A DNA stretch of 63,961 nt, filler included, from Craspedostauros australis (taxonomy: Eukaryota), in the NCBI GenBank assembly GCA_030167865.1. It is 10 parts of 10 records of this genome, joined end to end, with 100 filler letters (N's around TTAATTAATTAA, not from the genome) between each part and the next. Parts side by side here need not be neighbours in the genome. Positions count along the whole stretch, not along the records: positions 1 to 14,982 come from JALAGF010005104.1; 9 more parts are not named here. One strand, written 5' to 3'. Below, piece by piece: positions 1-27,975 of this stretch. Within the stretch, counting starts at the first letter, position 1, and each line of letters opens with the position of its first letter. The notes beneath the pieces were generated by a model. It worked only from the letters and a program-made list of their open reading frames with translations, had not been told where the DNA came from and ran no database searches. The translations under genes were made by a program, and so were the position numbers.

Positions 1-1200
1 CAGTGGTTGGGGATGCTGATTGAGATGGAGAGGAAGTCGTTGATGGTGTCGCAGATGGCATCGTAGACGGCGCCATGGACGGTGTCTCACTATCTTCAAA
101 AGCATTTGGCGCTGAGACTGGTTGTTCGATATCCGTGGTTGGGGATGCTGATTGAGATGGAGATGAAGTCGTGGATGGTGTTGTGGACGGTGTCGCAGAT
201 GATGTCTCAGTCGATGTCTCAGACGGTGTGGTGGATGGTTGTTCAGTTTCAGTGGTTGGGGATGCTGATTGAGATGGAGAGGACGTCGTTGATGGTGTCG
301 CAGATGGCATCGTAGACGGCGCCATGGACGGTGTCTCACTATCTTCAAAATCATTTGGCGCCGAGACTGGCTGTTCAACCTCCGTGGTTGGGGATGCTGA
401 TTGAGANNNNNNNNNNNNNNNNNNNNNNNNNNNNNNNNNNNNNNNNNNNNNNNNNNNNNNNNNNNNNNNNNNNNNNNNNNNNNNNNNNNNNNNNNNNNNN
501 NNNNNNNNNNNNNNNNNNNNNNNNNNNNNNNNNNNNNNNNNNNNNNNNNNNNNNNNNNNNNNNNNNNNNNNNNNNNNNNNNNNNNNNNNNNNNNNNNNNN
601 NNNNNNNNNNNNNNNNNNNNNNNNNNNNNNNNNNNNNNNNNNNNNNNNNNNNNNNNNNNNNNNNNNNNNNNNNNNNNNNNNNNNNNNNNNNNNNNGTCGT
701 TGATGGTGTCGCAGAAGGCATCGCAGATGATGTCTCCGTTGGCGTCTCAGACGGTGTCGTGGATGGTTGATCAGTTTCAATTGTTGGGGATGCTGATTGA
801 GATGGAGAGGAAGTCGTTGATGGTGTCGCAGATGGCATCGTAGACGGCGTCATGGACGGTGCGTCGCTATCNNNNNNNNNNNNNNNNNNNNNNNNNNNNN
901 NNNNNNNNNNNNNNNNNNNNNNNNNNNNNNNNNNNNNNNNNNNNNNNNNNNNNNNNNNNNNNNNNNNNNNNNNNNNNNNNNNNNNNNNNNNNNNNNNNNN
1001 NNNNNNNNNNNNNNNNNNNTCAGTTTCAGTGGTTGGGGATGCTGATTGAGATGGAGAGGAAGTCGTTGATGGTGTCGCAGATGGCATCGTAGACGGCGTC
1101 ATGGACGGTGCGTCGCTATCTTCAAAATCATTTGGCGCCGAGACTGGCTGTTCAACCTCCGTGGTTGGAGACCATGATTGAGATGGAGATGAAGTCGTCG
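1..1200 (-). repeat. 249-bp (83-aa) higher-order coding repeat built from two PSTTSSPSQSASPTT-containing subunits
   Basis: CAGTGGTTGGGGATGCTGATTGAGATGGAGAGGA occurs at positions 1 and 250, with further copies near 780 and 1027 between gaps. Confidence 0.85.
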
Positions 1201-4200
1201 ATGGCGTTGCGGAAGGTGCCCTTGTCACATTGGTGTCTGTCGCGTTGATATCACTTGACGGAGCATCAGACGGCAGTGTCGATGGAATCTCAGTTTCGTT
1301 GGTGTCGCTTGGTGGAGCCTCTGAAGGCGTCGCTGACGGAACAACCGTCGTGTTGTTATCCGTTGTATTCTGCTCGCTTGATGGAGCCGCTGAAGGCATC
1401 GCAGATGGAATCTCAGTTGCATTTGCGTTGCTGGATGGCATGTCTGATGGCATCGCGGACGGGATCTCCGTTGCATTGGTCTCCGTTGCGTTGGTGTCGC
1501 TTGACGGAGCTGATGATGGAATCGCGGACGGAATTTCTGTTGCGTTTGGGTCCGTTGCGTTGGCATCGTTTGATGGAACCGCAGATGGAATCTCCGTTGT
1601 GTTGGTATCTGTTGTGTTGATGTCGTTTGATGGAGCCTCCGAAGGCAACGTGGACGGGACCTCTGTGGCATTTGCATCCGTCAGATTGGTGTCGCTTGAT
1701 GGCATCTCTGATGGTAGTGTCGATGGAATCTCTGTTGCGTTGTTGTCGCTTGACGGAGCAGTGGAAGGCATTGTCGACGGAGCAGTCGTTGCGTTGCTAT
1801 CCGTTGTATTGGTGTCGCTCGACGGAGCTTCTGAAGGTATCGTTGAAGGAACAGCCGTTGTATTGGATTCTGTCGTATTCTGCTCGCTTGATGGAGCCTG
1901 CGAAGGCATCGCAGATGGAATCTCAGTTGCATTTGCGTCGCTGGACGTCATGTCTGATGGCATCGCGGACAGAACCTCCGTTGCATTGGTCTCCGTTGCG
2001 TTGTTGTCGCTCGATGGTGCCTCTGAAGGAATCATCGATGGAGCAGCCGTTGCATTAGAGTCTGTTTCGTTGGAATCACTTGATGGAGCGGATGATGGTA
2101 TCGTAGATGGAATCTCTGTTTCGTTGGTGTCCGTCGCATTAGTGTCGCTAGACGGAGCCTCCGAAGGCATCATCGATGGAACTGTCGTCGCGTTTGTGTC
2201 GCTGGATGGCATATCTGATGGCAGCACCGATGGGACCTCCGTTGTGTTGTTGCCATTTGATGGCGCAGACGATGGCACCGAGGACGGGAACTCAGTTGCA
2301 TTGGAGCCCGTCGCATTGGTGTCGCCAGATGGCATCACAGATGGAACAGCCGTCGCATTGGTCTCAATCGATGGGACACCAGAAGGCATCAACGATGGGA
2401 CCTCAGTTGTATTTCCGTCGGTTGTGTTGTTCTCGCTTGGAGTAGATGAGAGCATCGCTGACGGGACCTCTGTTGCATTGGTCTCCGTCAAGTTGGATTC
2501 TCTGGAAGGCCTGTCTGATGGCATCGCAGATGGAGCAGCCGTTGTATTTGAGTCTGTAGTATTTTGGTCACTGGATGGAGCCAATGATGGCAGCTCGGAC
2601 GGGGCCTCTGTTGCGTTCGAGTCTGTCGCATTGGTTCCAATCGATGGAGTCTGCGAAGGTATCATCGATGGAATAGTTGTTGCATTTGTGCCTGTTATGT
2701 TGTTGTTGGACGGAGTAGACGATGGCATCATCGATGGCATCGCTGTGACATTGGCGTCAGTTCCATTGGTATCGCTTGGCGCGGAGGAGGGCATGACGGA
2801 CGGGATATCCGTTGCATTGACATTAGTTTCGTTGGTGTTGGTTGGGGAGCCCGAAGGCATGGTCGATGGCACCTCCGTCGTATTGACGTCAGTTGCGTTG
2901 ACCTCGCTTGGTGCGACCGATGGCAGTGTTGATGGAATCTCCGTCGCATTGGTATCGGTTGCGTTGGTCTCGCTTGGTGCGGCTGATGGCGTCGTTGATG
3001 GGGTCTCCGTCGCATTGGCATCGGTTGCATTGGTCTCGCTTGGCGCATCAGAACGCATCGTTGATGGAATTGCCGTTGCATTGGCATCAGTTGCGTTGGT
3101 CTCACTTGGTGTGGCCGATGGCATCGTTGATGGCACCTCCGTTGCATTGGCATCGGTTGCATTGGTCTCACTTGGTGCATCAGAAGGCATGGTTGATGGC
3201 ACCTCCGTGCTGTTGGGATCAGTTGCGTTGGTCTCACTTGGTGCGTTCGATGGCATCATCGATGGGGTCTCCGTTGTATTGGTATCGGTTGCATTGGTCT
3301 CACTTGGTGCGTTCGAAGGCATCGTTGATGGAACATCCGTGCTGTTGGCGGTAGTTGAATTGGTCTCGCTTGGTGCGTTCGATGGCATGGTTGATGGAAT
3401 CTCTGTGCTGTTGGCGGTAGTTGCATTGGTCTCGCTTGGTGCATCAGAAGGCATGGTTGATGGAATCTCCGTGCTGTTGGCGGTAGTTGAATTGGTCTCA
3501 CTTGGTGCGTTCGATGACATCGTTGATGGCACATCCGTGCTGTTGGCGGTAGTTGAATTGGTCTCACTTGGTGCGTTCGATGGCATGGTTGATGGCACAT
3601 CCGTGCTGTTGGCATCGGTTGCATTGGTCTCATTTGGTGCATCAGAAGGCATGGTTGATGGCACATCCGTGCTGTTGGCGGTAGTTGCATTGGTCTCACT
3701 TGGTGCATCAGAAGGCATGGTTGATGGCACATCCGTGCTGTTGGCATCGGTTGCATTGGTCTCGCTTGGTGCGTTCGATGGCATCGTTGATGGAACATCC
3801 GTGCTGTTGGCGGTAGTTGCATTGGTCTCACTTGGTGCATCAGAAGGCATGGTTGATGGAACATCCGTGCTGTTGGCGGTAGTTGCATTGGTCTCACTTG
3901 GTTCGACCGATGGCAGTGTTGATGGAATCTCCGTCGCATTGGCATCGGTTGCGTTGGTCTCACTTGGTGCGTTCGATGGCANNNNNNNNNNNNNNNNNNN
4001 NNNNNNNNNNNNNNNNNNNNNNNNNNNNNNNGTAGTTGCATTGGTCTCACTTGGTGCATCAGAAGGCATGGTTGATGGCACATCCGTGCTGTTGGCGGTA
4101 GTTGCATTGGTCTCATTTGGTTCGACCGATGGCAGTGTTGATGGAATCTCCGTCGCATTGGCATCGGTTGCGTTGGTCTCACTTGGTGCGTTCGATGGCA

Positions 4201-7200
4201 TCGTTGATGGAACATCCGTGCTGTTGGCATCGGTTGCATTGGTCTCGCTTGGTGCGTTCGATGGCATGGTTGATGGAATCTCCGTGCTGTTGGCGGTAGT
4301 TGCATTGGTCTCACTTGGTGCATCAGAAGGCATGGTTGATGGCACATCCGTGCTGTTGGTGTTGGTCGCATTGGTCTCACTTGGTGCGTTCGAAGGCATC
4401 GTTGATGAAATCTCCGTCGCATTGGCGTTTGTTGCATTGGGCTCGCTTGGTGCGGCCGACGGCATTGTTGATGGACTCTCCGTGCTGTTGGCGGTAGTTG
4501 CATTGGTCTCACTTGGTGCATCAGAAGGCATCATGGATGGCGTCTCCGTCGAGTCAACATCAGTTGTATTGGCTTCGCTTGGTGTTTCTGAGGGTATCAT
4601 GGATGGAACCTCCGTTGCATTCAACTCGGTTGCGTTGGCCTGGGTTGGACTGTCTGACGGCATCATCGATGGAATCTCCGTTTCATTGAAGTTCGTGACA
4701 TTGGTGTTGCTTGGCGCGTCCGAAGGTATGGTTGATGGAACATCCATTGAGTTGGCGTCGGTTGCATTGATATCACTTGGAGCTAACGAAGGAATGGTCG
4801 ATGGCACTTCCGTTGCATTGACGTCCGTGGCGTTGATCTCACTTGGAGCTGACGAAGGTATGGTCGATGGGATCTCCGTTGAGTTGGTGTCGGTTGTATT
4901 GACTTCGCTTGGAGCCGACGAAGGCATCGTGGATGGGATCTCCGTTTCATTCGTATCGGTTGTATTGATCTCACTTGGTGAGTTCGAAGGTATGGACGAC
5001 GGAATCTCCGTGATGTTGGCACCGGTTGTATTGATCTCACTTGGAGCAGACGAAGGCATCGTGGATGGGATCTCGGTTGAGTTGACGTCGGTTGCATTGG
5101 TCTCACTTGGTGCAGACAAAGGCATGGTCGATGGGATCTCCGTTGCATTGACGTCCGTGGCGTTGACCTCGCTTGGAGCAGACGAAGGCATCGTGGATGG
5201 CACTTCCGTTGCATTTGTGTCGGTTGTATTGATCTCACTTGGAGCAGACGAAGGCATGGTCGATGGAACCTCCGTTGCATTGACGTCCGTGGCGTTGATC
5301 TTGCTTGGAGCTGACGAAGGCATCGTGGATGGCACTTCCGTTGAGTTGGTGTCGGTTGTATTGACTTCGCTTGGAGTCGACGAAGGTATGGTCGATGGGA
5401 TCTCCGTTGCATTGGTGTCGGTTGTATTGATCTCACTTGGTGCAGACGAAGGTATGGTCGATGGGATCTCCGTGCTGTTGGCATCGGTTGAGTTGATCTC
5501 GCTTGGAGCCGACGAAGGAATGGTCGATGGGATCTCCGTTGCATTGGTGTCGGTTGCATTGATCTCACTTGGTACAGACGAAGGAATGGTCGATGGCACT
5601 TCCGTTGCATTGGCGTCGGTTGCATTGGTCTCACTTGGAGCAGACGAAGGCATCGTGGATGGGATCTCTGTTGCATTGGTGTCGGTTGCATTGGCTTCAC
5701 TTGGAGCAAACGAAGAAATGGTCGATGGGATCTCTGTTGCATTGACATCAGTTGCATTGACTTCACTTGGAGCAGACGAAGGAATGGTCGATGGGATCTC
5801 CGTTGCATTGGTGTCGGTTGCATTGATCTCACTTGGTGCAGACGAAGGAATGGTCGATGGGATCTCCGTTGCATTGGTGTCGGTTGCGTTGATCTCACTT
5901 GGTACAGACGAAGGAATGGTCGATGGGATCTCCGTTGCATTGGTGTCGGTTGCATTGATCTCACTTGGTACAGACGAAGGCATCGTGGATGGGATCTCTG
6001 TTGCATTGGTGTCGGTTGCATTGATCTCGCTTGGTGCAGACGAAGGAATGGTTGATGGAACATCCGTTGAGTTGGTGTCGGTTGCATTGGTCTCACTTGG
6101 TACAGACGAAGGTATGGTCGATGGGATCTCCGTTGCATTGGTGTCGGTTGCATTGGTCTCACTTGGTACAGACGAAGGAATGGTCGATGGGATCTCCGTT
6201 GCATTGGTGTCGGTTGCGTTGATCTCGCTTGGTGCAGACGAAGGAATGGTCGATGGAATCTCCGTTGCATTGGTGTCGGTTGCATTGATCTCACTTGGTA
6301 CAGACGAAGGCATCGTGGATGGGATCTCTGTTGCATTGGTGTCGGTTGCATTGATCTCGCTTGGTGCAGACGAAGGAATGGTCGATGGAATCTCCGTTGC
6401 ATTGGAGTCCGTGGCGTTGACCTCGCTTGGAGCAAACGAAGGTATGGTCGATGGGATCTCCGTTGAGTTGGTGTCGGTTGCATTGGTCTCACTTGGAGCA
6501 AACGAAGGAATGGTCGATGGGATCTCTGTTGCATTGGCGTCGGTTGCATTGATCTCGCTTGGTGCAGACGAAGGAATGGTCGATGGGATCTCCGTTGCAT
6601 TGGTGTCGGTTGCATTGGTCTCACTTGGAGCAAACGAAGGAATGGTCGATGGAATCTCCGTTGCATTGGAGTCCGTGGCGTTGACCTCGCTTGGAGCAAA
6701 CGAAGGTATGGTCGATGGAATCTCCGTTGCATTGGTGTCGGTTGCGTTGATCTCACTTGGTACAGACGAAGGAATGGTCGATGGGATCTCCGTTGCATTG
6801 GTGTCGGTTGCATTGATCTCNNNNNNNNNNNNNNNNNNNNNNNNNNNNNNNNNNNNNNNNNNNNNNNNGTCGGTTGCATTGATCTCGCTTGGTGCAGACG
6901 AAGGAATGGTCGATGGAATCTCCGTTGCATTGGAGTCCGTGGCGTTGACCTCGCTTGGAGCAAACGAAGGAATGGTCGATGGGATCTCCGTTGAGTTGGT
7001 GTCGGTTGCATTGGTCTCACTTGGAGCAAACGAAGGAATGGTCGATGGGATCTCCGTTGCATTAGAGCCCGTGGCGTTGACCTCGCTTGGAGCAAACGAA
7101 GGCATGGCCGATGGAATCTCCGTTGCATTGGTGTGGGTTGTATTGGTCTCACTTGGTGCAGACGAAGGAATGGTCGATGGAATCTCCGTTGCATTGGTGT

Positions 7201-10200
7201 CGGTTGCATTGGTCTCACTTGGAGCAAACGAAGGAATGGTCGATGGGATCTCCGTTGCATTGGCGTCGGTTGCATTGATCTCGCTTGGTGCAGATGAAAG
7301 TATGGTCGATGGGATCTCCGTTGAGTTGGTGTCGGTTGCGTTGATCTCACTTGGTACAGATGAAGGCATGGTCGATGGGATCTCCGTTGCATTCGTGTCA
7401 GTTGCATTGACTTCGCTTGGAGCAAACGAAGGAATGGTCGATGGGATCTCCGTTGCATTGGAGTCCGTGGCGTTGACCTCGCTTGGAGCTGACGAAGGAA
7501 TGGTCGATGGGATCTCCGTTGAGTTGGCGTCGGTTGCATTGGTCTCACTTGGAGCCGACGAAGGCATCGTGGATGGGATCTCTGTTGCATTGGTGTCGGT
7601 AGTATTGACTTCACTTGGAGCAGACGAAGGAATGGTCGATGGGATCTCTGTTGCATTGACATCAGTTGCATTGACTTCGCTTGGAGCCGACGAAGGAATA
7701 GTCGATGGGATCTCTGTTGCATTGGCGTCGGTTGCATTGACTTCGCTTGGTGCAGACGAAGGAATGGTCGATGGAACATCCGTTGCATTGGAGTCCGTGG
7801 CGTTGACCTCGCTTGGAGCAAACGAAGGAATGGTCGATGGGATCTCCGTTGAGTTGACGTCCGTGGCGTTGATCTCACTTGGTGCAGACGAAGGAATGGT
7901 CGATGGAATCTCCGTTGCATTGGTGTCGGTTGCATTGATCTCGCTTGGTGCAGACGAAGGTATGGTCGATGGGATCTCCGTTGCATTCGTGTCGGTTGCG
8001 TTGATCTCACTTGGTNNNGACGAAGGAATGGTCGATGGAATCTCCGTTGCATTGGAGTCCGTGGCGTTGACCTCGCTTGGAGCAAACGAAGGAATGGTCG
8101 ATGGAATCTCCGTTGAGTTGGTGTCGGTTGCATTGGTCTCAGTTGGAGCAAACGAAGGAATGGTCGATGGGATCTCTGTTGCATTGACATCAGTTGCATT
8201 GACTTCACTTGGAGCAGACGAAGGCATGGTCGATGGGATCTCCGTTGCATTGGAGTCCGTGGCGTTGACCTCGCTTGGAGCAAACGAAGGAATGGTCGAT
8301 GGAATCTCCGTTGCATTGGCGTCGGTTGCATTGGTCTCACTTGGAGCAGACGAAGGCATGGTCGATGGGATCTCTGTTGCATTGACATCAGTTGCATTGA
8401 CTTCGCTTGGAGCAAACGAAGGAATGGTCGATGGGATCTCCGTTGCATTGGCGTCGGTTGCATTGATCTCGCTTGGTGCAGACGAAGGAATGGTCGATGG
8501 AATCTCCGTTGCATTGGAGTCNNNNNNNNNNNNNNNNNNNNNNNNNNNNNNNNNNNNNNNNNNNNNNNNNNNNNNNNNNNNNNNNNNNNNNNNNNNNNNN
8601 NNNNNNNNNNNNNACGAAGGAATGGTCGATGGGATCTCCGTTGCATTGGCGTCGGTTGCATTGGTCTCGCTTGGAGCAGACGAAGGAATGGTCGATGGAA
8701 CATCCGTNNNNNNNNNNNNNNNNNNNNNNNNNNNNNNNNNNNNNNNNNNNNNNNNNNTGCATTGATCTCACTTGGTACAGACGAAGGAATGGTCGATGGC
8801 ACTTCCGTTGCATTGGCGTCGGTTGCATTGGTCTCACTTGGTACAGACGAAGGAATGGTCGATGGGATCTCCGTTGAGTTGGTGTCGGTAGTATTGACTT
8901 CGCTTGGAGCAGACGAAGCCATCGTGGATGGCACTTCCGTTGCATTGGCGTCGGTTGCATTGGTCTCACTTGGAGTCGACGAAGGAATGGTCGATGGGAC
9001 CTCCGTTGCATTGGTGTGGGTTGTATTGATCTCACTTGGAGCTGACGAAGGAATGGTCGATGGCACTTCCGTTGCATTGGTGTCGGTTGCACTGATCTCG
9101 CTTGGTGCAGACGAAGGTATGGTCGATGGAATCTCCGTTGAGTTGGTGTCGGTTGCATTGGTCTCACTTGGTACAGACGAAGGAATGGTCGATGGGATCT
9201 CCGTTGCATTGGCGTCGGTTGCATTGGTCTCACTTGGAACAGACGAAGGCATCGTGGATGGGATCTCTGTTGCATTGGTGTCGGTTGTATTGATCTCACT
9301 TGGAGCTGACGAAGGAATGGTCGATGGGATCTCTGTTGCATTGACATCAGTTGCATTGACTTCGCTTGGACCCGACGAAGGCATGGTCGACGGGATCTCC
9401 GTTGCATTGGAGTCCGTGGCGTTGACCTCGCTTGGAGCAGACGAAGGAATGGTCGATGGGATCTCCGTTGCATTGGCGTCGGTTGCATTGGTCTCACTTG
9501 GAGCTGACGAAGGCATCGTAGATGGCACTTCCGTTGCATTGGCGTCGGTTGCATTGATCTCGCTTGGTGCAGACGAAGGTATGGTCGATGGAATCTTCGT
9601 TGCATTGGCGTCGGTTGCATTGACTTCACTTGGAGCAAACGAAGGAATGGTCGATGGAATCTCCGTTGCATTGGAGTCCGTGGCGTTGATCTCACTTGGA
9701 GCAGACGAAGGCATCGCGGATGGGATCTCCGTTGAGTTGACGTCGGTTGTATTGACTTCGCTTGGTACAGACGAAGGTATGGTCGATGGGATCTCCGTTG
9801 CGTTGGCGTCGGTTGCATTGACTTCGCTTGGAGCAGACGAAGGCATCGTGGATGGCACTTCCGTTGAGTTGGTGTCGGTTGTATTGACTTCGCTTGGAGC
9901 CGACGAAGGAATGGGCGATGACACTTCCGTTGCATTGGCGTCGGTTGCATTGACTTCACTTGGAGCAGACGAAGGTATGATCGATGGGATCTCCGTTGAG
10001 TTGACACCAGTTGCGTTGACTTCGCTTGGAGCTGACGAAGGTATGGTCGATGGAATCTCCGTTGCATTGGTGTCGGTTGCATTGATCTCACTTGGTGCAG
10101 ACGAAGGCATGGTCGATGGAATCTGCGTTGAGTTGGTGTTGGTTGCATTGATCTCACTTGGTGCCGACGAAGGCATTATGGATGGGATCTCCGTTTCGTT

Positions 10201-13200
10201 GAAGTCCGTGACATTGATCGCACTTGGAGCCGACGAAGGCATCGTGGATGGGATCTCCGTTGCATTGGCGTCGGTTGCATTGATCTCACTTGGGGAGTCT
10301 GAGGGCATCCTGGATGGAATCTCCGTTGCATTGACGTCGGTTGCATTGATCTCACTGGATGCAGACGAAGGTATGGTCGATGGGATCTCTGTTGCATTGA
10401 CATCAGTTGCATTGACTTCGCTTGGTGCAGACGAAGGTATGGTCGATGGAATCTCCGTTGCATTGGCGTCGGTTGCATTGACTTCACTTGGAGCAAACGA
10501 AGGAATGGTCGATGGAATCTCCGTTGCATTGGAGTCCGTGGCGTTGATCTCACTTGGAGCCGACGAAGACATCGTGGATGGCACTTCCGTTGCATTGGTG
10601 TCGGTTGCGTTGATCTCACTTGGGGAAGACGAAGGAATGGTCGATGGGACCTCCGTTGCATTGGTGTCGGTTGCATTGACTTCACTTGGTGCCGACGAAG
10701 GTATGGTCGATGGAATCTCCGTTTCATTGACATCAGTTGCATTGACTTCGCTTGGGGCCGACGAAGGAATAGTCGATGGGATCTCCGTTGAGTTGACGTC
10801 GGTTGCATTGGTCTCACTTGGAGCAGACGAAGGCATCGTGGATGGAATCTCCGTTGAGTTGGTGTCGGTTGTATTGATCTCACTTGGAGCAGACGAAGGA
10901 ATGGTCGATGGAACATCCGTGCTGTTGGCATCGGTTGTATTGATCTCACTTGGAGCAGACGAAGGCATCGTGGATGGGATCTCCGTTGAGTTGACGTCGG
11001 TTGTATTGATCGCACTTGGTGCAGACGAAGGAATGGTCGATGGAATCTCCGTTGAGTTGGTGTCGGTTGCATTGATCTCACTTGGAGCCGACGAAGGTAT
11101 CGTGGATGGGACCTCCGTTGAGTTGGTGTCGGTTGCATTGACTTCACTTGGAGCTGACGAAGGCATCGTAGATGGCACTTCCGTTGAGTTGGCGTCGGTT
11201 GCATTGGTCTCACTTGGAGCAGACGAAGGCATCGTGGATGGCGCTTCCGTTGAGTTGGTGTCGGTTGCATTGATCTCACTTGGAGCAGACGAAGGAATGG
11301 TCGATGGAACATCCGTGCTGTTGGCATCGATTGAGTTGATCTCGCTTGGAGCCGACGAAGGAATGGTCGATGGGATCTCCGTTGCATTGGCGTCGGTTGC
11401 ATTGGTCTCACTTGGAGCAGACGAAGGCATCGTGGATGGGATCTCCGTTGCATTGGTGTCGGTTGTATTGATCTCACTTGGAGCAGACGAAGGTATGGTC
11501 GATGGGATCTCCGTTGAGTTAGCCTCGGTTGTATCGATCTCACTGGGTGCAGACGAAGGCATGGTCGATGGGATCTCGGTTGCATTGACATCAGTTGCAT
11601 TGACTTCGCTTGGATCCGACGAAGGCATCGTGGACGGAATCTCAGTGACGTTGGTGTCGGTGTCAGTGATGTTGTTGTCGCTTGGAGTATCAGAAGGCAT
11701 CATGGAAGGAACATCTGTCGTATTGGCATCAGTTGTGTTAGCAGCGCTTGGAGCATCCGAAGGTATCGTTGATGGAATCTCCGTTGCATTCAAATCGGTT
11801 GCGTTGATCTCGCTGGGAGCACCAGAGGGAAAGGTTGATGGTACTTCCGTTACATTGGCATCAGTTGTGTTGATCTCACTCGGAGCTCCAGAGGGCATGG
11901 TTGATGGGATAGTTGTCGCATTGGCATCAGTCGTGTTAGTGTTGCTTGGTGCATCAGAGGGCACCATTGATGGGATATCTGTTGTTGCATTGAAGTCAGT
12001 GGCATTCGTCTCACTCGGAACGCCCGAAGGTATCATCGATGGCATCTCTGTTGCATTCGCATCAGTCGCGTTGATATCACTTGGAGCGGCGGAAGGCATC
12101 GTGGATGGTATCTCTGTTGCATTCGCGTCAGTTGCGTTGGTCTCGCTCGGGGCATCTGAAGGCACAACCGATAGGCTAGATGGTTGAGCCGACGGCAGCA
12201 TCGACGGTTCTGTTGATGGAGCGATGGAAACCTGTGATGGAAGACCAGACGGTCCGCTGGATGGGTTCAGAGATGGAAGGTCAGATCCCGTGGATGGTTC
12301 TCCAGAGGGTGTTTCAGACGGGTCAAGCGATGGTTCATTTGATAGCAACGTTGGCCCAATTGAAGGCTCACTCGAAGGTCCATTCGAAGGGACCTCAGAC
12401 CCCCTAGATGGTCGTTCCGATGGCATGATCGACGGATTTGCCGACGGTCTATCAGATACCTGCGATGGATGATCAGAAGGACTATCAGACGGCTGAGTAG
12501 ATGGCCGATCAGACATCTGAGATGGAGTCAATGATGGGCCAGTTGATGGATAGTCCGATGGCATATCGGATGCGATCGAAGGGCCTGCAGAAGGAACGGT
12601 AGATGGTTCCGTCGATGGCACCGCTGATACTTGAGATGGTAACAACGATGGCGCCACTGATGGATTGGCTGACGGCAAGCCCGATGACTGTGATGGTGTC
12701 ATCGAAGGAGAATCGGAAGGAATTGATGAAGGCGTGTTCGATTGTTGCGATGGTTGGACCGAGGGTTCAGTTGACGGACCTGCAGATGGAAAACCAGATG
12801 CTTGAGATGGCGCTTGTGATGGCTCAACTGAAGGATCTGATGACGGCACCTCAGATGCCTGCGACGGGACGGTGGAAGGCGCATTCGACGGGTCGCGAGA
12901 TGGACCTGCCGATAGTTGGGATGGAAGCGACGAAGGCCCGGCCGAAGGGTCCGCTGAAGGAACGTCCGATGCCTGTGATGGCCCGATGGATGGTTCAGTC
13001 GACGGGGGAGCCGAAGGCAAATCCGATGCTTTGGATGGTTGATCCGAAGGTCCCATGGAAGGGTGAATAGAAGGCACCTCTGATGCTTCTGACGGTTGGT
13101 TGGAGGGTGTTATCGATGGTTCGTCCGACGGTTCATCAGATGCATTGGACGGCATCGACGATGGCGAAGCCGATGGCGCCGTCGACGGCACATCAGACGA

Positions 13201-14982
13201 TTCGGATGGTTGGTCAGAGGGCCCTACGGATGGGTCAGCAGACGGTACATCGGACGATTCGGATGGTTGAGATGAAGGTGCCGATGATGGATCCGCAGAT
13301 GGTACATCAGAAGCTTCAGATGGCTGTGATGAAGGTTCTGACGATGGATCCGCAGACGGCACATCTGATGACTCAGATGGCTGCGACGAGGGTGCCGACG
13401 ATGGATCCGCAGACGGTACATCCGATGACTCAGATGGTTGAGATGAAGGTGCCGACGATGGATCTGCAGACGGTACATCAGACGATTCGGATGGCTGTGA
13501 TGAGGGTGCCGATGATGGATCTGCAGACGGTACATCAGAAGCTTCAGATGGCTGTGATGAAGGTTCTGACGATGGATCCGCAGATGGTACATCTGATGAC
13601 TCAGATGGCTGTGACGAAGGTGCCGACGACGGATCCGCAGACGGTACATCAGACGATTCGGATGGCTGTGATGAAGGTTCTGACGACGGATCTGCAGACG
13701 GTACATCAGAAGCTTCAGATGGTTGAGATGAAGGTGCCGATGATGGATCTGCAGATGGTACATCTGATGACTCAGATGGCTGTGACGAAGGTGCCGACGA
13801 CGGATCCGCAGACGGTACATCAGACGATTCGGATGGCTGAGATGAAGGTGCCGATGATGGATCTGCAGACGGTACATCAGAAGCTTCAGATGGCTGTGAT
13901 GAAGGTNNNNNNNNNNNNNNNNNNNNNNNNNNNNNNNNNNNNNNNGATGGCTGTGATGAAGGTTCTGACGACGGATCTGCAGATGGTACATCAGACGATT
14001 CGGATGGCTGAGATGAAGGTGCCGATGATGGATCTGCAGACGGTACATCCGATGACTCAGATGGCTGTGATGAAGGTTCTGACGATGGATCCGCAGATGG
14101 TACATCAGATGACTCAGATGGCTGTGACGAAGGTGCCGACGACGGATCCGCAGACGGTACATCAGACGATTCGGATGGCTGAGATGAAGGTGCCGATGAT
14201 GGATCTGCAGACGGTACATCAGAAGCTTCAGATGGCTGTGATGAAGGTTCTGACGACGGATCTGCAGATGGTACATCAGACGATTCGGATGGCTGAGATG
14301 AAGGTGCCGATGATGGATCTGCAGACGGTACATCAGACGATTCGGATGGCTGTGATGAGGGTGCCGATGATGGATCTGCAGATGGTACATCAGAAGCTTC
14401 AGATGGCTGTGATGAAGGTTCTGATGATGGATCTGCAGACGGTACATCAGACGATTCGGATGGCTGTGACGAAGGTGCCGACGACGGATCTGCAGACGGT
14501 ACATCAGACGATTCGGATGGCTGAGATGAAGGTGCCGATGATGGATCCGCAGACGGTACATCAGAAGCTTCAGATGGCTGTGATGAAGGTGCCGATGATG
14601 GATCTGCAGACGGTACATCAGACGATTCGGATGGCTGTGACGAAGGTGCCGATGATGGATCTGCAGATGGTACATCCGATGACTCAGATGGCTGTGATGA
14701 AGGTTCTGACGACGGATCTGCAGACGGTACATCAGAAGCTTCAGATGGCTGTGATGAAGGTGCCGATGATGGATCTGCAGATGGTACATCTGATGACTCA
14801 GATGGTTGAGATGAAGGTTCTGACGATGGATCCGCAGACGGTACATCAGACGATTCGGATGGCTGTGATGAAGGTGCCGACGACGGATCCGCAGACGGTA
14901 CATCAGACGATTCGGATGGCTGTGATGAAGGTTCTGACGATGGATCCGCAGATGGTACATCTGATGACTCAGATGGCTGTGA
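1..14982 (-). CDS. Giant P/S/T-rich, acidic, mucin-like tandem-repeat glycoprotein (partial; both termini missing)
   Basis: The minus strand reads SQPSESSDVPSADP... from the scaffold edge at 14982, through PSSAPSEINATDTNATEIPSTI repeats, and continues in frame at ~1230 into ...INATDTNVTRAPSATPSTTSSPSQSWSPTTEVEQPVSAPNDFEDS. Frame jumps in the ORF track coincide with N gaps. Repeat variation respects codon structure. Confidence 0.88.
1230..12160 (-). repeat. 66-bp coding tandem repeat (22 aa: PSSAPSEINATDTNATEIPSTI), ~165 copies
   Basis: The 22-aa periodicity is clear in translation. Units are homogeneous centrally and degenerate at both edges. Copy number is span/66 and includes N gaps. Confidence 0.95.
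13200..14982 (-). repeat. 57-bp coding tandem repeat (19 aa: DVPSADPSSAPSSQPSESS), ~31 copies; degenerate 19-aa units continue to ~12180
   Basis: AGGTTCTGAC at 13561 recurs as AGGTGCCGAC at 13618 (57-bp period). The translations show 19-aa periodicity. Confidence 0.95.
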
Positions 14983-15082
14983 NNNNNNNNNNNNNNNNNN
15001 NNNNNNNNNNNNNNNNNNNNNNNNNNTTAATTAATTAANNNNNNNNNNNNNNNNNNNNNNNNNNNNNNNNNNNNNNNNNNNN
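14983..15082. other. Artificial scaffold-joining spacer (44N-TTAATTAATTAA-44N); further cores at 19658, 22048, 24348, 26362, 36195, 52024, 53764 and 61931
   Basis: An identical 12-mer with stops in all six frames occurs nine times, always centred in N runs. Confidence 0.97.
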
Positions 15083-16050: not shown

Positions 16051-16471
16051 TGTTGGTAACTGTAATCTGAGATCTTATGTCTATTTGGTAATGGTGATCC
16101 AATTTCTCTTCCTCTCTTGGTGGTGGTTGTTGGTTGCATCGTTGTCTCAGCCTGTTGTTGGTATCGATCGTCCATGATTGACGATCGCAGTTCATCGTGT
16201 TGTGTAGGTGGAGTCATTGTTATTCCTCCGTGGTATCTCGTCTTGTCCTTCATCTCTAGTCCTCTTTCGGCTACGTCGCCTGGACATTCGACTGTCCCGG
16301 CGATGCTTGTTCGCTTTCTCGGTTCATCTGGTCCATGACCGATAGTTTGGTCCATGACCTCTGAGTTGCGATCCAGACTAATTGTCAGGAGTTTTAGTCC
16401 TGTTGGTCAAGTTCTGCGTCTGTCCGTCTTCCGTGGCGCTACGTCATGCCATACTTCGACATCCTCCTTCT
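16051..16471 (-). mobile_element. Putative polypurine tract and 3' LTR of the copia element
   Basis: On the minus strand AGAAGGAGGA (16471-16462) is followed directly by TGTCGAAG at 16461. A candidate end ...GTTACCAACA lies at 16051, giving TGT...ACA termini. There is no second copy to confirm the boundary. Confidence 0.55.
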
Positions 16472-19010: not shown

Positions 19011-19535
19011 TGTTGGCAAGTTCCGCTCACGGTAACCTACGATCGTGGAAGATGGTGTTGGTTGATAGTCGTCTGTTTGCTATTTCATTACGTTGGCACT
19101 CTGATACTCTCGGTGTCCGTTCGTTCTCTTGCCCGATGCTCTCAGCGCTTCAATCTGTTTCGTAGATTCAGTCTCCGACTATGAGTCGGTACGCGAGATC
19201 CTCTCTCGCTCCTCTCTGTATTCTCTCTCTCTCTCTCTACATCGTGTGCTTGTGCTACACGATCCTCCGTGTTTGATGCGTACTCCGCATTCGACACTCT
19301 GTTCGTTCAGTACTGGTTCCTACTCCATGAGTACTTACCATTTGAAGTTCACCTTCAGTATCNNNNNNNNNNNNNNNNNNNNNNNNNNNNNNNNNNNNNN
19401 NNNNNNNNNNNNTCACCTTCAGTATCCATGATCTTCATGGGTCATCTGATCTTCACCTCCTGTTCTGACTTGGAGACAGATGTCGACGTGGTGACACGAT
19501 GACATCCTGTCGACGTCAGTAGGTGTCCTTCTGGG
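19011..19535 (-). mobile_element. LTR family A, copy 1 (partial), abutting and interrupting the copia pol
   Basis: Begins TGTTGGCAAG on the plus strand and is colinear with 51288-51979 and 62661-63364. Confidence 0.8.
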
Positions 19536-19778
19536 ACACGCGGCAAAATGTCGAGTATGACCCCAAAACCTCATGACTTAAATACGAACGACAGTTTCAG
19601 TGATGTTTGATATNNNNNNNNNNNNNNNNNNNNNNNNNNNNNNNNNNNNNNNNNNNNTTAATTAATTAANNNNNNNNNNNNNNNNNNNNNNNNNNNNNNN
19701 NNNNNNNNNNNNNGGACACATTTGGGCCCACAACTAGATCTGTTCTATTGGATTGAGTAATCTCTTGTGTTCCAGTGC

Positions 19779-24303: not shown

Positions 24304-24403
24304 NNNNNNNNNNNNNNNNNNNNNNNNNNNNNNNNNNNNNNNNNNNNTTAATTAATTAANNNNNNNNNNNNNNNNNNNNNNNNNNNNNNNNNNNNNNNNN
24401 NNN

Positions 24404-26317: not shown

Positions 26318-27975
26318 NNNNNNNNNNNNNNNNNNNNNNNNNNNNNNNNNNNNNNNNNNNNTTAATTAATTAANNNNNNNNNNNNNNNNNNNNNNNNNNN
26401 NNNNNNNNNNNNNNNNNCCCCCCCCATCGAGTTGAACCCCTGGGGTGCTCTGCGTAAATTGAGTTGAGTTGAGTTGTGGGCAGCACAATCATCGCTCGTG
26501 GTTGCCGGCAGCGGCGTTGAGGTAGCGAACACGCAAAGATCCCGGTCAAGATACACATGTCTTCCTCAACTCTAGTTTTCTCAAGGCAGCTGTTTGTGAA
26601 GAGAAAGCGTCTGGTGCTCTTTACCTTCTATACGATTAGAACATGACAGGTATTAGTACGTGCACCGCAAGCAAGATAAGAGTGTCATCATCGGATGTAT
26701 CACTTCTCGAACGTGTCTTGGCAGAGAAGAACAAGGTGCCCCGGTCTGCTCTCTCTTGCTCTGCATTCGAATCTGATCGTCTTCATGTGTTGCGTTCGTT
26801 GATGGTCTCGTGTCTTTCTCGTTGTCGATGGTGCATACGAGTACTACAACCTACGTACAACCTGTTCACGAGTATTATACGATGCATACGATCTACTCGT
26901 ACCGATTGTGGTGGTGGGCATGTGTTGGCCTCCCTTCCTCTCCACACGGCAACGGTCTTCCACGTTGCTCATTCGTCGCAGAACACGCGACCTTTTGGAC
27001 GATTCTCTGTGGACCTCAAAGACGCTGATGTTGCCTGTTTACGAACAGCATAGAGGTGCCCATTGTCCACCTGCGCAAGGGCATTCGAACCCTGACCTGT
27101 GCCTTGGATTTTGTGGACGTGGCGCTGTGTTCTTGTTGCCACATTCTCAATGGCATTCGTGCTCCTTGTGTCTGTGGAGTACGTACGAGTATGGCCCATT
27201 CGATGACGATTGTCGCGGATGGTGCAGAATGTGACGCTTCGGCGGTGGCAGGTTGACGCTTGTACTCGTGCGGCACTCTCCGCAAATGTCGAACCTGTCA
27301 GTATCTGTGCGCGTGTTGTTGGACACTGAGTGCGTGCTGCGTCCTGGACTTCACGAATTTGTATGCTTCGCGATCCCCAGTATCGGCACTTGTGGAATAC
27401 GATTAGAGTCCGTGGTATATAAAATATGTATGTAAGCGTGGCATGTACGAGCATGTATGGTAGCTTAGCATGTATAATACTATACGCAATGAAGTGTTAA
27501 GATTAGTATGTATGCACATGAACCGTTCCATCCGCGCTTCTCCCGTGGTCTTGGGAGATGGATGATACTGTCCGGACACTGGGATGCGTCGCAAAGTTAG
27601 TGGCTGTTTGGGGCGTATTGGTATGGCATAGCATGATACCATACGTGGTTGGAGCCGAGGGAAAGGGCGAGGCCACGCCGCCCTCTCCGTGCCCCCGAAG
27701 TCTTTTGTTCATTGTAGCATCAGATATATGGCATGGTTTCCACCTCAGCGAGGTACTAGTTGCCATACCCTGCGCGGCTGGCTGAGAGGTTAGTTAGCTT
27801 GATAGCTGGTTGGTTGTTCGCGGATTCTCGCATTCTTGCATTCCGTTCGCTCCTCTGTAGGGTCGTCTTGCTTCAACCTGCGTTCGCTGTGGTGCTTGGG
27901 CAAAATTGCACTCCTATTCCTCATGTTGGAGTGAAAGAGCTGGCAGATACTCATCCTCTTCCTTTCTCTCTCTCT

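What the first reader, a model, noticed from the sequence alone, without database searches (positions are those of the whole stretch)
1..14982. Giant (~5,000+ aa) three-domain mucin-like protein: candidate diatom mucilage, adhesive-trail or wall scaffold
Seen: one minus-strand frame spans the whole 15-kb scaffold piece with no visible intron. It is almost devoid of Cys, basic and aromatic residues. From N to C it runs through 19-aa S/P/D/E repeats, 22-aa N-sequon repeats and 83-aa T/S/P repeats. Established: raphid diatoms glide and adhere using secreted P/T/S-rich glycoproteins. Inference: this is an extended, polyanionic, heavily glycosylated extracellular filament with chemically distinct zones. 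I do not recognise it as a described protein. The signal peptide and any globular domains lie outside the window.
Basis: partly seen in the sequence, partly recalled or inferred. Interest (0 to 1): 0.85.

Follow-up and report, generated by a model that had tools for sequence, protein, structure and literature searches.

The report
Giant unannotated PS-repeat glycoprotein gene fragment
This 15-kb scaffold holds part of a real gene for a huge, acidic, Ser/Pro/Thr-rich protein made only of short repeats, of a kind known from diatom slime and adhesive fibres, and its long middle part carries about 320 sites for N-linked sugars.

Summary
Window 1-14982 is one scaffold, joined to nine others by artificial linkers. 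It carries a stop-free minus-strand reading of 4,994 codons, of which 4,753 are determined. The frame changes only across a 50-N gap.

The protein has three parts:
- about 49 units of a 19-aa (PSxx)4+3 repeat;
- about 160 units of a 22-aa repeat, PSxxPSxxPSxx followed by two N-x-T sites;
- an 83-aa (44+39) T/S/P super-repeat.

No other frame is open in the two least repetitive stretches. Among the 19-aa units pN/pS is 0.067, although synonymous sites differ by 38%. So this is a selected coding sequence, not a satellite.

Only the 19-aa part matches a family, the Pfam PT repeat. Its named relatives are mostly diatom proteins.

The 22-aa sequon array has no close relative: 0 hits at E<=1e-30 among 1.84 billion representatives. 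No gene model for it was found.

The best reading is a secreted, polyanionic, extended glycoprotein. It resembles the giant PTS-rich diatom trail proteins and the PS/Txx 'TLP-4' glycofibrils, with a dense N-glycan array added.

Secretion, glycosylation, expression, organism and function were not shown. I rate it a new variant of a known kind.

The parts
13201..14982 (-). N-terminal part as far as it is held: a tight array of the 19-aa unit SQPSESSDVPSADPSS(A/E)PS, which is four PSxx tetrapeptides plus 3 residues. It is cut off by the scaffold end at 14982 and contains a 39-N gap at 13907-13945.
   Evidence: TRF gives period 57, 31.6 copies, 81% matches and 0% indels. In 30 N-free units the entropy by codon position is 0.055/0.069/0.713. 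pS is 0.379, pN is 0.025 and pN/pS is 0.067; this is the only frame that is both open and constrained. Pfam PF04886 PT scores 80.4 and 55.1 bits against a cut-off of 26.2.
12157..13200 (-). 18 diverged 19-aa units in strict register. The PS dipeptides keep fixed positions while the other residues vary.
   Evidence: Unit list. pN/pS is 0.487 over 18 units. The coding frame has 0 stops here; the other five frames have 4-27. PF04886 scores 71 bits.
8758..12156 (-). First part of the 22-aa array. The unit consensus is PST(I/M)PSSAPSE(I/T/V)NATD(T/A)NATE(I/V), with two N-x-T sites per unit.
   Evidence: TRF gives period 66, 51.2 copies, and a higher-order period of 198. Unit statistics. No Pfam family.
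8708..8757 (.). 50-N assembly gap across which the open frame changes phase. The gap size is arbitrary, so this is not a frameshift of the gene.
1208..8707 (-). Second part of the 22-aa array. A variant sub-family, PSTMPS(D/N)APSETNAT(T/D)ANSTDV, runs from about 4870 to about 2460. A diverged tail with variable unit length (18-27 aa) runs from about 2700 to 1208. N gaps lie at 8522-8613, 8016-8018, 6821-6868 and 3982-4031.
   Evidence: identity to the consensus falls from 18-20 of 22 in the centre to 10 of 22 at the tail. No Pfam family. AlphaFold2 on 1502-2707 gives pLDDT 37.4 and no secondary structure.
2..1207 (-). C-terminal part as far as it is held: an 83-aa super-repeat of alternating 44-aa and 39-aa T/S/P-rich units with an acidic patch (EVEQPVSAPNDFEDSE). 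It has no N-x-S/T site and runs off the window start. N gaps lie at 872-1019 and 407-695.
   Evidence: Translation. TRF period 117 at 119-338. The coding frame has 0 stops; the other frames have 2-22. 0 sequons beyond residue 4590. No Pfam family.
14983..15082 (.). Artificial joint (N44 - TTAATTAATTAA - N44) between scaffolds. Everything beyond it is another scaffold and is not genomic context for this gene.
   Evidence: nine such joints in the window.

Best explanation
Window 1-14982 is an internal fragment, with both termini missing, of a very large, probably intronless, protein-coding gene on the minus strand. The organism is a microbial eukaryote, most likely a diatom.

The product has at least 4,750 residues, a polypeptide mass of at least 474 kDa and a net charge of about -630. 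It has no Cys and no globular domain in the part held. I read it as a secreted, extended 'bottle-brush' glycoprotein built from PSxx tetrapeptides.

Proposed working, all inferred:
- The PS dipeptides (695 of them) are hydroxylated and O-glycosylated on Pro and Ser, as in PT/PSxx repeat proteins and the TLP-4 glycofibril.
- In the central 3,600 residues, every three PSxx are followed by a 10-residue insert with two N-x-T-(D/E) sites, which the oligosaccharyltransferase glycosylates as the chain enters the ER. That would give about 320 N-glycans.
- The acidic backbone and the sugar coat keep the chain stretched, with a contour length of about 1.5-1.7 um.
- It then acts as a hydrated, protease-resistant strand of mucilage, adhesive or cell coat. 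Alternatively it is the long stalk of a surface protein whose head lies outside the window.

Shown here: the open frame, the selection on the encoded protein, the motif statistics, the PT-family match of the 19-aa part, and the lack of relatives for the sequon array.

Inferred only: secretion, every modification, the extended shape, and the function.
For: (1) Coding and strand.
- The minus frame has 0 stops in all six sub-regions. All other frames have stops in 1-1200 and in 12151-13200.
- In the 19-aa array, pN/pS is 0.067 with pS 0.379 in the minus frame. The only stop-free plus frame there has pN/pS 2.77. The plus frame with a low ratio (0.099) contains stops.
- Entropy by codon position is 0.055/0.069/0.713 over 30 units and 0.379/0.313/0.904 over 100 22-aa units.
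- The PS motif is written with both Ser codon families, TCN 560 and AGY 135. That fits a motif selected at the protein level.

(2) One consistent protein. The same PS spacing runs through all three arrays: 695 PS against 23 SP, and a spacing of 4 in 457 of 694 intervals.

(3) Sequons.
- 319 of 361 Asn lie in N-x-S/T. Composition-matched shuffles give 116 +/- 8, maximum 139.
- 318 are N-x-T and 1 is N-x-S, although Ser is the commonest residue.
- The residue after the site is D or E in 276 of 319 and never Pro.
- In 100 units chosen without regard to the sequons, N13, T15, N18 and T20 are kept in 98-99, while their codons vary.
- Adverse effects on core glycosylation weigh more on Ser than on Thr sequons, and Pro at X or after the hydroxy residue blocks it (review PMC12818257; passages read).

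(4) Family and location.
- PF04886 PT repeat scores 55-80 bits on the 19-aa part.
- PT-repeat hits carry domains that I recall as extracellular: FG-GAP/VCBS, CAP, LCCL, ShK, trypsin, ricin, malectin, VWA, PAN, REJ. These names are recalled from accession numbers; the accession numbers come.
- 113 of 249 Met-started hits have a hydrophobic N-terminal 10-mer. 8 pass the same test at residues 101-135.

(5) Precedent.
- CaTrailin4 has a 28,951-bp intronless gene, is 894 kDa and is about 70% PTS repeats. Diatom adhesive material is about 70% carbohydrate and rich in Ser, Thr and dihydroxyproline (10.1101/2023.03.06.531300).
- The TLP-4 glycofibril is a chain of PT/Sxx repeats. A 6,077-residue Nitzschia inconspicua protein has 667 PSxx repeats (PMC11725842).

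(6) Disorder. The diverged part of the 22-aa array folds to nothing: pLDDT 37.4 and no secondary structure.
Against: - No N-terminus is held, so a signal peptide is not shown. No C-terminus or anchor is held either.
- There is no evidence of expression.
- No predicted or transcript-derived protein covering window 1022-2707 exists among 1.84 billion cluster representatives; the best hit is 39% identical. None covering 12100-13299 was found at 220-2,000 aa. Yet another protein of this window, P0009, is in UniRef, MMETSP and EukProt. So the reference proteome of the organism seems to lack this gene, and a transcriptome set seems to lack fragments of it. That is weak evidence, because repeats assemble and annotate badly.
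- Within the 22-aa array alone the strand cannot be told. The plus frame that shares wobble positions is also open and has the same pN/pS, 0.265 against 0.266.
- One of five AlphaFold2 models of eight near-identical units gave a solenoid-like stack (pLDDT 70, pTM 0.66).
- Copy numbers are uncertain, since there are eight N gaps inside the arrays.
- The organism was not identified by any tool.
Confidence: 0.62

Rival explanations
1. The repeats are only the stalk or spacer of a modular surface protein, such as an adhesin, receptor or enzyme. Its functional globular head, and perhaps a membrane anchor, lie outside the window. The repeat region projects that head away from the cell and is not itself the working material.
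For: Most PT-repeat hits combine the repeat with globular domains, as shown by the Pfam columns. Examples are P0001, 4,928 aa with PF00024, and many with PF01839/PF13517. Both termini of the present gene are missing. Another ORF of the window, 60200-61609, uses a six-unit PT/Sxx linker between a signal-like N-terminus and a Cys-rich part.
Against: 4,753 determined residues contain no Cys and no Pfam domain other than PT. That is far longer than the linkers in the hits. Three distinct arrays under strong constraint, and the selected N-x-T pairs, suggest that the repeats themselves matter. This rival overlaps with the main reading: both have the protein secreted, glycosylated and extended.
Confidence: 0.25
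2. The 22-aa units fold, one coil per unit, into a beta-solenoid, or co-fold with other chains as in the TLP-12 triple beta-helix. Asn and Thr ladders would form a regular surface for binding ice, mineral or polysaccharide. On this reading the N-x-T motifs are structural and not, or not only, glycosylation sites.
For: - The best AlphaFold2 model of eight units (6-row alignment of window segments) has pLDDT 70 and pTM 0.66, with one strand at residues 11-17 of every unit.
- Its weak Foldseek neighbours are pentapeptide-repeat, pectate-lyase and LRR solenoids.
- Each unit keeps three aliphatic positions: 4 (I/M), 12 (I/T/V) and 22 (I/V).
- Thr is used exclusively at +2, and Thr is beta-branched.
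- LRR proteins with a period of about 22 aa appear among the sequence hits.
- Giant short-repeat proteins can have ordered beta cores under a glycan coat, as in TLP-12 (bioRxiv 10.1101/2025.09.30.679562; passages read).
Against: - The other four AlphaFold2 models score 44-53.
- No Foldseek match reaches E<=0.001; the best is 0.23, with TM 0.36.
- The diverged units of the same array give pLDDT 37.4 and no strands. That run used a single sequence, so it is not a matched control.
- There are three Pro in the first ten residues of each unit.
- If the chain enters the ER, N-x-T-(D/E) sites would be glycosylated before folding, and glycans 4.8 A apart on successive coils would clash (inference).
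- The LRR hits lack matching hydrophobic positions and are 27-29% identical.
Confidence: 0.06
3. The ORF is real sequence but not a working gene. It could be an unexpressed or decaying repeat expansion, or a chimeric or collapsed assembly of several loci.
For: No gene model or transcript-derived peptide was found for it. There are eight N gaps, and the scaffold is unplaced and short. The frame changes across one gap.
Against: About 4,750 codons are free of stops. pN/pS is 0.067 at pS 0.38 in the 19-aa array and 0.27 in the 22-aa array. That requires long purifying selection on the protein. The 76-81% DNA identity between units makes collapse of identical copies less likely. The array shows the usual pattern of a homogeneous centre and diverged edges.
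Confidence: 0.06
4. The coding strand of the 22-aa array is the plus strand. The ORFs 1182-8765 and 8117-12187 would then encode a V/L/I/G/A/S/D-rich 22-aa repeat.
For: These plus frames are open across the array. They show the same pN/pS as the minus frame, 0.265 against 0.266, because their wobble positions coincide.
Against: - Their openness follows automatically from the absence of Tyr, His and Gln codons in the minus frame (reasoning from the code; composition).
- They stop at both edges of the array: 4-17 stops in 1-1200 and 6-27 in 12151-13200.
- They have no counterpart in the 19-aa array, where the open plus frame has pN/pS 2.77.
- Their Pfam hits are sub-threshold or repeat-summed noise: DUF2645 with 0 stretches passing on their own.
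- The minus frame explains PS as one motif written with two codon families, and it continues in phase from a Pfam-recognised PT repeat.
Confidence: 0.01

Closest known systems
PT repeat (Pfam PF04886) and PS/Txx tetrapeptide-repeat proteins, proposed cores of TLP-4-type glycofibrils (CryoSeek II, PMC11725842)
   Same: PSxx tetrapeptides dominate: 695 PS, with spacing 4 in 457 of 694 intervals. The 19-aa part passes the Pfam cut-off. The protein is of giant size, like the 6,077-residue, 667-repeat Nitzschia inconspicua protein named in the paper. Organism-named relatives are mostly diatoms.
   Different: The tetrapeptides never run uninterrupted. After four units there is a 3-residue stutter (19-aa unit). 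After three units there is a 10-residue insert with two N-x-T sites (22-aa unit). TLP-4 carries O-glycans only, and N-glycosylation was ruled out for its densities. The 22-aa and 83-aa parts do not match PF04886. No chemical modification was tested here.
Giant PTS-rich adhesive-trail proteins of the raphid diatom Craspedostauros australis, CaTrailin4 and Ca5609 (bioRxiv 10.1101/2023.03.06.531300; later in New Phytologist according to the reference list of PMC11725842)
   Same: Very large genes without introns, made mostly of tandem P/T/S-rich repeats. They break short-read assemblies and are truncated at scaffold ends. They are predicted to be disordered, heavily glycosylated, extended strands of micrometre length.
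   Different: Those proteins carry a CAA (pAdhesive_15) domain or Cys-containing DUF modules between the PTS regions, and a raphid-specific C-terminal region. The part held here has 0 Cys and no domain. The preprint's main text contains no word beginning 'N-glycos' (0 occurrences), so it describes no N-sequon array.
Animal mucins and plant or algal hydroxyproline-rich glycoproteins (extensins, arabinogalactan proteins)
   Same: Tandem S/T/P-rich repeats with an expected dense sugar coat and extended shape.
   Different: There are no Cys-rich terminal or interspersed domains in the part held. The motif is PS, not SP or SPPPP: 695 PS against 23 SP. The backbone is strongly acidic. An N-glycan array replaces part of the O-glycan region.
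TLP-12-type glycofibril cores: giant dodecapeptide-repeat proteins of Amoebophrya that form a triple beta-helix (bioRxiv 10.1101/2025.09.30.679562)
   Same: A giant protein of thousands of residues built from one short repeat that carries two glycosylation positions per unit.
   Different: TLP-12 has a 12-residue GSxxSx7 unit, O-linked glycans and a C-terminal ICA domain that drives trimer folding. Here the unit has 22 residues with three Pro and two Asn sites, and no C-terminus is held.

Membership tests
Pfam PF04886 PT repeat | Whole-protein score above the curated cut-off of 26.2 bits | tested here: met
   The 19-aa part scores 80.4 bits (13948-14982), 55.1 bits (13300-13905) and 71 bits (12100-13299).
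Pfam PF04886 PT repeat | The same score for the 22-aa array and the C-terminal 83-aa repeats | tested here: not met
   0 families at E<=0.01 for 8758-12099, 6869-8521, 4034-6820, 1301-3979 and 2-1300.
TLP-4-like glycofibril core (PMC11725842) | Long consecutive runs of PT/Sxx or T/SPxx tetrapeptides. The paper's showcase proteins have more than 600 aa of consecutive repeats making up more than 50% of the protein. | tested here: inconclusive
   PSxx is the building block: spacing 4 in 457 of 694 PS-to-PS intervals. But runs are only 3 or 4 tetrapeptides long before a 10- or 3-residue insert: spacing 14 in 129 intervals and 7 in 48.
TLP-4-like glycofibril core (PMC11725842) | 3,4-dihydroxyproline carrying two glycans, an O-glycan on the next Ser/Thr, and a glycan shell that holds the fibril together | not testable with these tools
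   This needs chemistry or cryo-EM of the native protein.
Diatom adhesive-trail proteins (Trailins, Ca5609; 10.1101/2023.03.06.531300) | N-terminal signal peptide | not testable with these tools
   The ORF is cut by the scaffold end at 14982, and no genome is held.
Diatom adhesive-trail proteins (Trailins, Ca5609; 10.1101/2023.03.06.531300) | PTS-rich repeats making up a large share of the protein | tested here: met
   S+P+T is 52.6% of 4,753 residues.
Diatom adhesive-trail proteins (Trailins, Ca5609; 10.1101/2023.03.06.531300) | CAA / pAdhesive_15 domain (Trailins) or Cys-containing DUF modules between the PTS regions (CaTrailin4, Ca5609) | tested here: not met
   There is no Pfam family other than PT in any of the eight minus-frame pieces scanned, which cover the determined sequence. 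Cys count is 0. This holds only for the part held in the window.
Diatom adhesive-trail proteins (Trailins, Ca5609; 10.1101/2023.03.06.531300) | Presence in isolated trails, and the raphid-specific conserved C-terminal region | not testable with these tools
   The C-terminus lies outside the window.
Gel-forming or membrane mucins | PTS tandem-repeat domain flanked by Cys-rich (VWD/CK) or SEA/TM domains | tested here: inconclusive
   The PTS-type repeats are present. No Cys-rich, SEA or TM domain lies within the window, but both termini are missing.
Leucine-rich repeat or other beta-solenoid repeat proteins | A confident, reproducible solenoid model with a significant structural match, and a hydrophobic core pattern | tested here: not met
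   1 of 5 models reaches pLDDT 70; the others reach 44-53. No Foldseek match reaches E<=0.001. The diverged units give pLDDT 37.4. No LRR Pfam hit was found.

The most novel reading that the evidence does not exclude
The central domain is the core of a new type of glycofibril. In it, triads of O-glycosylated (dihydroxy)Pro-Ser tetrapeptides would alternate, about 160 times with a fixed 22-residue period, with pairs of fully occupied N-glycans. That would give more than 300 N-glycans on one chain. All glycofibril cores and diatom trail proteins described in the papers I read (10.1101/2023.03.06.531300, PMC11725842, 10.1101/2025.09.30.679562) carry, or are predicted to carry, O-linked sugars only. 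Such a protein would be a genetically encoded, strictly periodic scaffold for N-glycans outside the cell. It comes from a gene that current annotation appears to miss.
Probability: 0.3. Interest if true: 0.65.

Novelty: new variant of a known kind. Interest (0 to 1): 0.5.

Why it matters
Diatom mucilage, adhesive strands and cell coats are ecologically important in biofilms, sediment stabilisation and carbon export. Their protein cores are poorly known, because their giant repetitive genes break assemblies and escape annotation. This locus looks like such a case.

The locus adds a sharply defined, testable design: a PSxx backbone with a periodic double N-x-T insert, kept by strong purifying selection.

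If the sites are occupied, this would be an unusually dense and regular N-glycan display. It would also be a handle for isolating the protein: PNGase sensitivity, lectins, and Glu-C or Asp-N peptides.

The locus is also a caution for structure prediction. AlphaFold2 gave a solenoid for the near-perfect units but nothing for their diverged copies.

Tried and rejected
- Whole genome: none is held (one search was a mistyped reference).
- Earlier findings of this scan: nothing by place, sequence or words.
- Public sequencing runs for window 11900-13400: the first request got no usable answer. On the repeat none was listed and no RNA holder was listed.
- Naming the organism:
  - An exact look-up of the prohibitin ORF was not in the collection.
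  - The 427-aa ORF at 37216-38496 (P0009) is in UniRef, MMETSP and EukProt, but without a name.
  - The ESM Atlas gave only broad taxa for it.
Organism-named hits that are diatoms, by my reading of the names: 10 of 10, 6 of 9 (the others are a fish, a chrysophyte and a bacterium), and 1 of 1.
- Relatives of the 22-aa array:
  - Word-indexed search at 1,596-5,079 aa: 8 hits, best 35% identity.
  - Exhaustive HMMER search: 48 hits at E<=1e-3, 3 at <=1e-10 and 0 at <=1e-30.
  - None of the 282 fetched proteins has more than 14 sequons in any 300 residues, against 29 here.
  - Metagenome scan: 7 loci, all PSxx similarity only. L001-L005 have 0-2 sequons, and L006/L007 match only 52 residues.
  - ESM Atlas best score 0.81, below the level of a lead.
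- The LRR proteins among the hits (P0249, P0251, P0253) I judge to be period-matching chance hits.
- Plus-strand ORFs: Pfam gave only noise.
- Other fragments of the gene elsewhere in the window: no blastn hit. Only two short PS/Txx runs were found, at 60800-60871 and 49585-49620.
- Rfam and tRNA scans of the whole window: nothing.
- Literature on N-sequon tandem arrays in diatoms: the search with 'diatom, N-glycosylation, sequon, tandem repeats, extracellular' listed 12 of 35 papers, and by its term counts none of the listed papers that mentions diatoms also holds 'tandem repeats' (listing only). The searches gave the papers cited. Supplements of the bioRxiv preprints (gene models, Table S6) and SI Table S2 of PMC11725842 were not seen. 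They could hold a related sequence.

Full report
WHAT THE WINDOW IS

The 63,961-base window is not one stretch of a chromosome. Nine identical joints (44 N, TTAATTAATTAA, 44 N) split it into ten pieces. The finding occupies the first piece, 1-14982. Sequence beyond 15082 is therefore another scaffold and gives no genomic context. No whole genome is held for the window.

THE OBSERVATION

- Open frame. Stop-to-stop ORFs on the minus strand cover 4783-15030 and 2-8767. The biologically sensible reading uses the first frame from 14982 down to 8758 and the second from 8707 down to 2. The change of phase falls inside the 50-N gap 8708-8757, which has arbitrary length.
- Size. Read this way there are 4,994 codons without a stop. 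241 are X, from eight N runs totalling 719 bases.
- Composition, on 4,753 determined residues: S 22.6%, P 15.2%, T 14.8%, A 11.1%, E 7.6%, N 7.6%, D 5.9%. There is no Cys. K+R+H is 17 and F+Y+W is 28. D+E is 642 against K+R 13. The polypeptide mass is at least 474 kDa.
- 19-aa array. TRF finds a 57-nt array at 13184-14982. It continues as 18 diverged units in strict register down to 12157.
- 22-aa array. TRF finds a 66-nt array, with a 198-nt higher order, from about 12144 to about 2717, and looser repeats down to about 1228. It has 160 recognisable units. They match the consensus at 18-20 of 22 positions in the centre, at 16 at the N-terminal edge and at 10 at the C-terminal edge.
- C-terminal repeats.

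IS IT CODING, AND ON WHICH STRAND?

Tandem repeats keep several frames open, so an open frame alone proves little. Long plus-strand ORFs do exist here, at 1182-8765, 8117-12187 and 13071-15038. Four tests were run.

1. Stops by sub-region. In six sub-regions the minus coding frame has 0 stops throughout. In the two least repetitive regions all other frames have stops: 2-22 in 1-1200 and 4-27 in 12151-13200.
2. Substitutions among the 19-aa units.
   - Among 30 units of the tight array the DNA differs mainly at third codon positions; entropy is 0.055/0.069/0.713.
   - pS is 0.379, pN is 0.025 and pN/pS is 0.067.
   - The only open plus frame there has pN/pS 2.77. The plus frame with a low ratio (0.099) contains stops.
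   - The diverged 19-aa units give 0.487.
3. Substitutions among the 22-aa units.
   - The minus frame gives pN/pS 0.266 over 57 units. The plus frame that shares its wobble positions gives 0.265 and is open.
   - So inside this array the strand cannot be told from substitutions.
   - That plus frame is open simply because the minus-frame protein lacks Tyr, His and Gln. This follows from the genetic code.
4. Ser codons in the PS motif. The PS dipeptide recurs 695 times through all three arrays. It is written with both Ser codon families, TCN 560 and AGY 135. The third PS of each 22-aa unit uses AGY. One protein motif explains this. On the plus strand the same bases would be three unrelated residues.

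Together with the in-phase transition from a Pfam-recognised PT repeat into the 22-aa array, the minus strand is the coding strand. The high synonymous divergence between units also argues against a collapsed-repeat artefact and for long-standing selection on every unit.

ANATOMY OF THE PROTEIN

- The common element is PSxx. There are 695 PS against 23 SP, and spacing 4 occurs in 457 of 694 intervals.
- Zone 1 has about 49 units of PSxx x4 plus three residues (consensus). Its composition is S 36%, P 21%, D+E 15%. It has one sequon.
- Zone 2 has PSxx x3 plus a ten-residue insert with two N-x-T sites.
  - There are 148 double sites, spaced exactly 22 residues apart in 121 of 147 intervals.
  - In the whole protein 319 of 361 Asn sit in N-x-S/T. 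200 composition-matched shuffles give 116 +/- 8, maximum 139.
  - 318 are N-x-T and one is N-x-S, although Ser is the commonest residue.
  - The residue after the site is Asp or Glu in 276 of 319 and never Pro. N-P-S/T occurs three times.
  - In 100 units picked only by their PS pattern, N13, T15, N18 and T20 are kept in 98-99, while their third codon positions vary.
- Zone 3 has no sequon. It carries an acidic, slightly hydrophobic patch in every 83 residues.

RELATIVES

Family scans:
- Pfam recognises only PF04886 (PT disordered repeat), and only in zone 1. The scores are 55-80 bits against a cut-off of 26.2.

Searches with the diverged 19-aa part:
- There were hundreds of PT-repeat hits: 313 at 220-700 aa and 501 at 701-2,000 aa.
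- None is near-identical. The best identities are about 50%, over parts of the query.
- Organism-named hits that are diatoms, by my reading of the names: 10 of 10 and 6 of 9.
- In these proteins the repeat sits next to domains I recall as extracellular. The names are recalled from the accession numbers listed in the calls.
- 113 of the 249 fetched hits of all four searches that start with Met have a hydrophobic N-terminal 10-mer. 8 pass the same crude test further in.

Searches with the diverged end of the 22-aa array:
- The word-indexed search gave 8 weak hits at 1,596-5,079 aa.
- The exhaustive search of 1.84 billion representatives gave 48 hits at E<=1e-3, 3 at <=1e-10 and 0 at <=1e-30. The best is 39% identical.
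- The hits are ordinary PSxx proteins or LRR proteins with a similar period. None has a sequon density near that of the query: at most 14 per 300 residues, against 29.
- A metagenome scan with an alignment of eight-unit segments gave 7 loci with PSxx similarity only.
- The ESM Atlas gave nothing above 0.81.

What this means:
- The sequon array has no detectable relative.
- No predicted protein in these collections covers window 1022-2707.
- Another protein of the window is in UniRef, MMETSP and EukProt. So the organism's proteome is in the collection but seems to lack this gene.

FOLD

- Eight near-identical 22-aa units, given with a six-row alignment of window segments, produced one AlphaFold2 model with pLDDT 70 and pTM 0.66. 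It has one strand per unit, a solenoid-like stack. The other four models scored 44-53.
- Foldseek found no PDB match at E<=0.001. The weak neighbours are pentapeptide-repeat, pectate-lyase and LRR solenoids.
- AlphaFold2 is known to produce confident but unrealistic beta-solenoids on near-perfect repeats (PMC11795689; abstract read).
- The 402 diverged residues of the same array (1502-2707) gave pLDDT 37.4 and no secondary structure. That run used a single sequence, so it is not a matched control.
- I take the array to be disordered or extended and keep the solenoid as a minor rival.

WHAT IS KNOWN

- Giant intronless PTS-rich proteins are described in the adhesive trails of Craspedostauros australis (10.1101/2023.03.06.531300; passages and section 20 read).
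  - CaTrailin4 has a 28,951-bp gene, is 894 kDa and is about 70% PTS.
  - Ca5609 is split across contigs within its repeats.
  - They carry a CAA domain and/or Cys-containing DUF modules.
  - The trail material is about 70% carbohydrate and rich in Ser, Thr, Gly and dihydroxyproline.
- PT/Sxx tetrapeptide chains coated with O-glycans on dihydroxyproline and Ser/Thr form the TLP-4 glycofibril (PMC11725842; passages read).
  - Database mining in that paper found many such proteins in diatoms, including one with 667 PSxx repeats.
- Further glycofibril cores built from 12-, 3- and 2-residue repeats are described, and the glycan linkages given in the passages I read are O-linked (10.1101/2025.09.30.679562; passages read).
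- The present protein belongs to this general kind but differs in four ways:
  - no Cys or globular module in 4,750 residues;
  - interrupted tetrapeptide runs;
  - a long, strictly periodic array of paired N-x-T-(D/E) sites without relatives;
  - very strong purifying selection on each unit.

MECHANISM PROPOSED

All of this is inferred. I give the main reading 0.62.
- The chain enters the ER.
- The N-x-T pairs are glycosylated co-translationally. Thr at +2, small residues at X and an acidic residue rather than Pro after the site all fit good acceptor sites (PMC12818257; passages read).
- The PS dipeptides are hydroxylated and O-glycosylated in the Golgi.
- The acidic, sugar-coated chain is secreted as a stiff strand about 1.5-1.7 um long, at 0.31-0.35 nm per residue.
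- The strand serves as mucilage, adhesive tether or cell-coat scaffold, or as the stalk of a larger surface protein.
- The three zones would give chemically different surfaces: O-glycan and acid; mixed O- and N-glycan; and Thr-rich mucin with acidic patches.

OPEN POINTS

- The organism.
- Both termini.
- Expression.
- All modifications.
- Copy numbers.
- Function.

It depends on the organism being a raphid diatom, which was not tested.

Noticed in passing
window 14983-15082, 19614-19713, 22004-22103, 24304-24403, 26318-26417, 36151-36250, 51980-52079, 53720-53819, 61887-61986: Nine identical joints (N44, TTAATTAATTAA, N44) show that the window is a chain of ten unplaced scaffolds of 1.6-15.7 kb, joined by a six-frame stop linker. 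Neighbouring genes across a joint are not linked in the genome.
   Followed up: yes
window 16407-19079 (-) and 24437-26365 (+): Fragments of Copia-type retrotransposons. RVT_2 scores 38.8 bits on 16407-17681, with weaker RVT_2 matches on 17886-19079 and 24920-25627. They are interrupted by N gaps.
   Followed up: partly
window 37216-38496 (+): A 427-aa ORF (P0009), present letter for letter in UniRef, MMETSP and EukProt. It has no Pfam hit at E<=0.01. The ESM Atlas places it next to Glyco_transf_15 (KTR-type alpha-1,2-mannosyltransferase) clusters at 0.96, and its structure matches a GT15 cluster at TM 0.55. It looks like a Golgi mannosyltransferase on another scaffold. No link to the finding was shown.
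   Followed up: partly
window 40468-41325 (+) and 38571-39725 (+): A single-exon prohibitin-like gene (Band_7/SPFH, 108.8 bits). Its exact sequence is not in the protein collection. Next to it is an ORF with a weak FAM210A/B-like domain (23.1 bits, below the cut-off of 26).
   Followed up: partly
window 60200-61609 (+): An ORF with an internal Met followed by a hydrophobic, signal-like stretch. Then comes a six-unit PT/Sxx linker at 60800-60871, then a Cys-rich C-terminal part with a sub-threshold DUF7640 match (19.1 bits against 28.1). It is a small example, in the same assembly, of PS/Txx used as a linker in a probably secreted protein.
   Followed up: partly
window 2-12156 (-), the 22-aa array: The two Pro codons of positions 1 and 9 are almost always CCA (56 and 57 of 57), and that of position 5 is always CCT (57 of 57). 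Ser, Thr and Asn codons vary freely. So synonymous divergence is uneven along the unit. This may be partial DNA-level homogenisation or codon-specific constraint. Codon use of the giant ORF also differs from two ordinary genes of the window; for example, CCA is 0.62 against 0.19 and GCA is 0.55 against 0.11.
   Followed up: no
window 2464-4870 (-): A distinct sub-family of the 22-aa unit, with Asp/Asn at position 7, Thr at 12, and Thr and Ser in the second site (…ETNATTANSTDV). It occupies a contiguous block, so the array has at least two internally homogenised domains.
   Followed up: partly
proteins P0249, P0251, P0253 (hits): Leucine-rich-repeat proteins with a 20-24-residue period score E 3e-12 to 2e-7 against the 22-aa array at 27-29% identity. 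This appears to come from a shared period and N-x-(S/T) positions. It warns that periodic low-complexity queries attract unrelated repeat families.
   Followed up: partly
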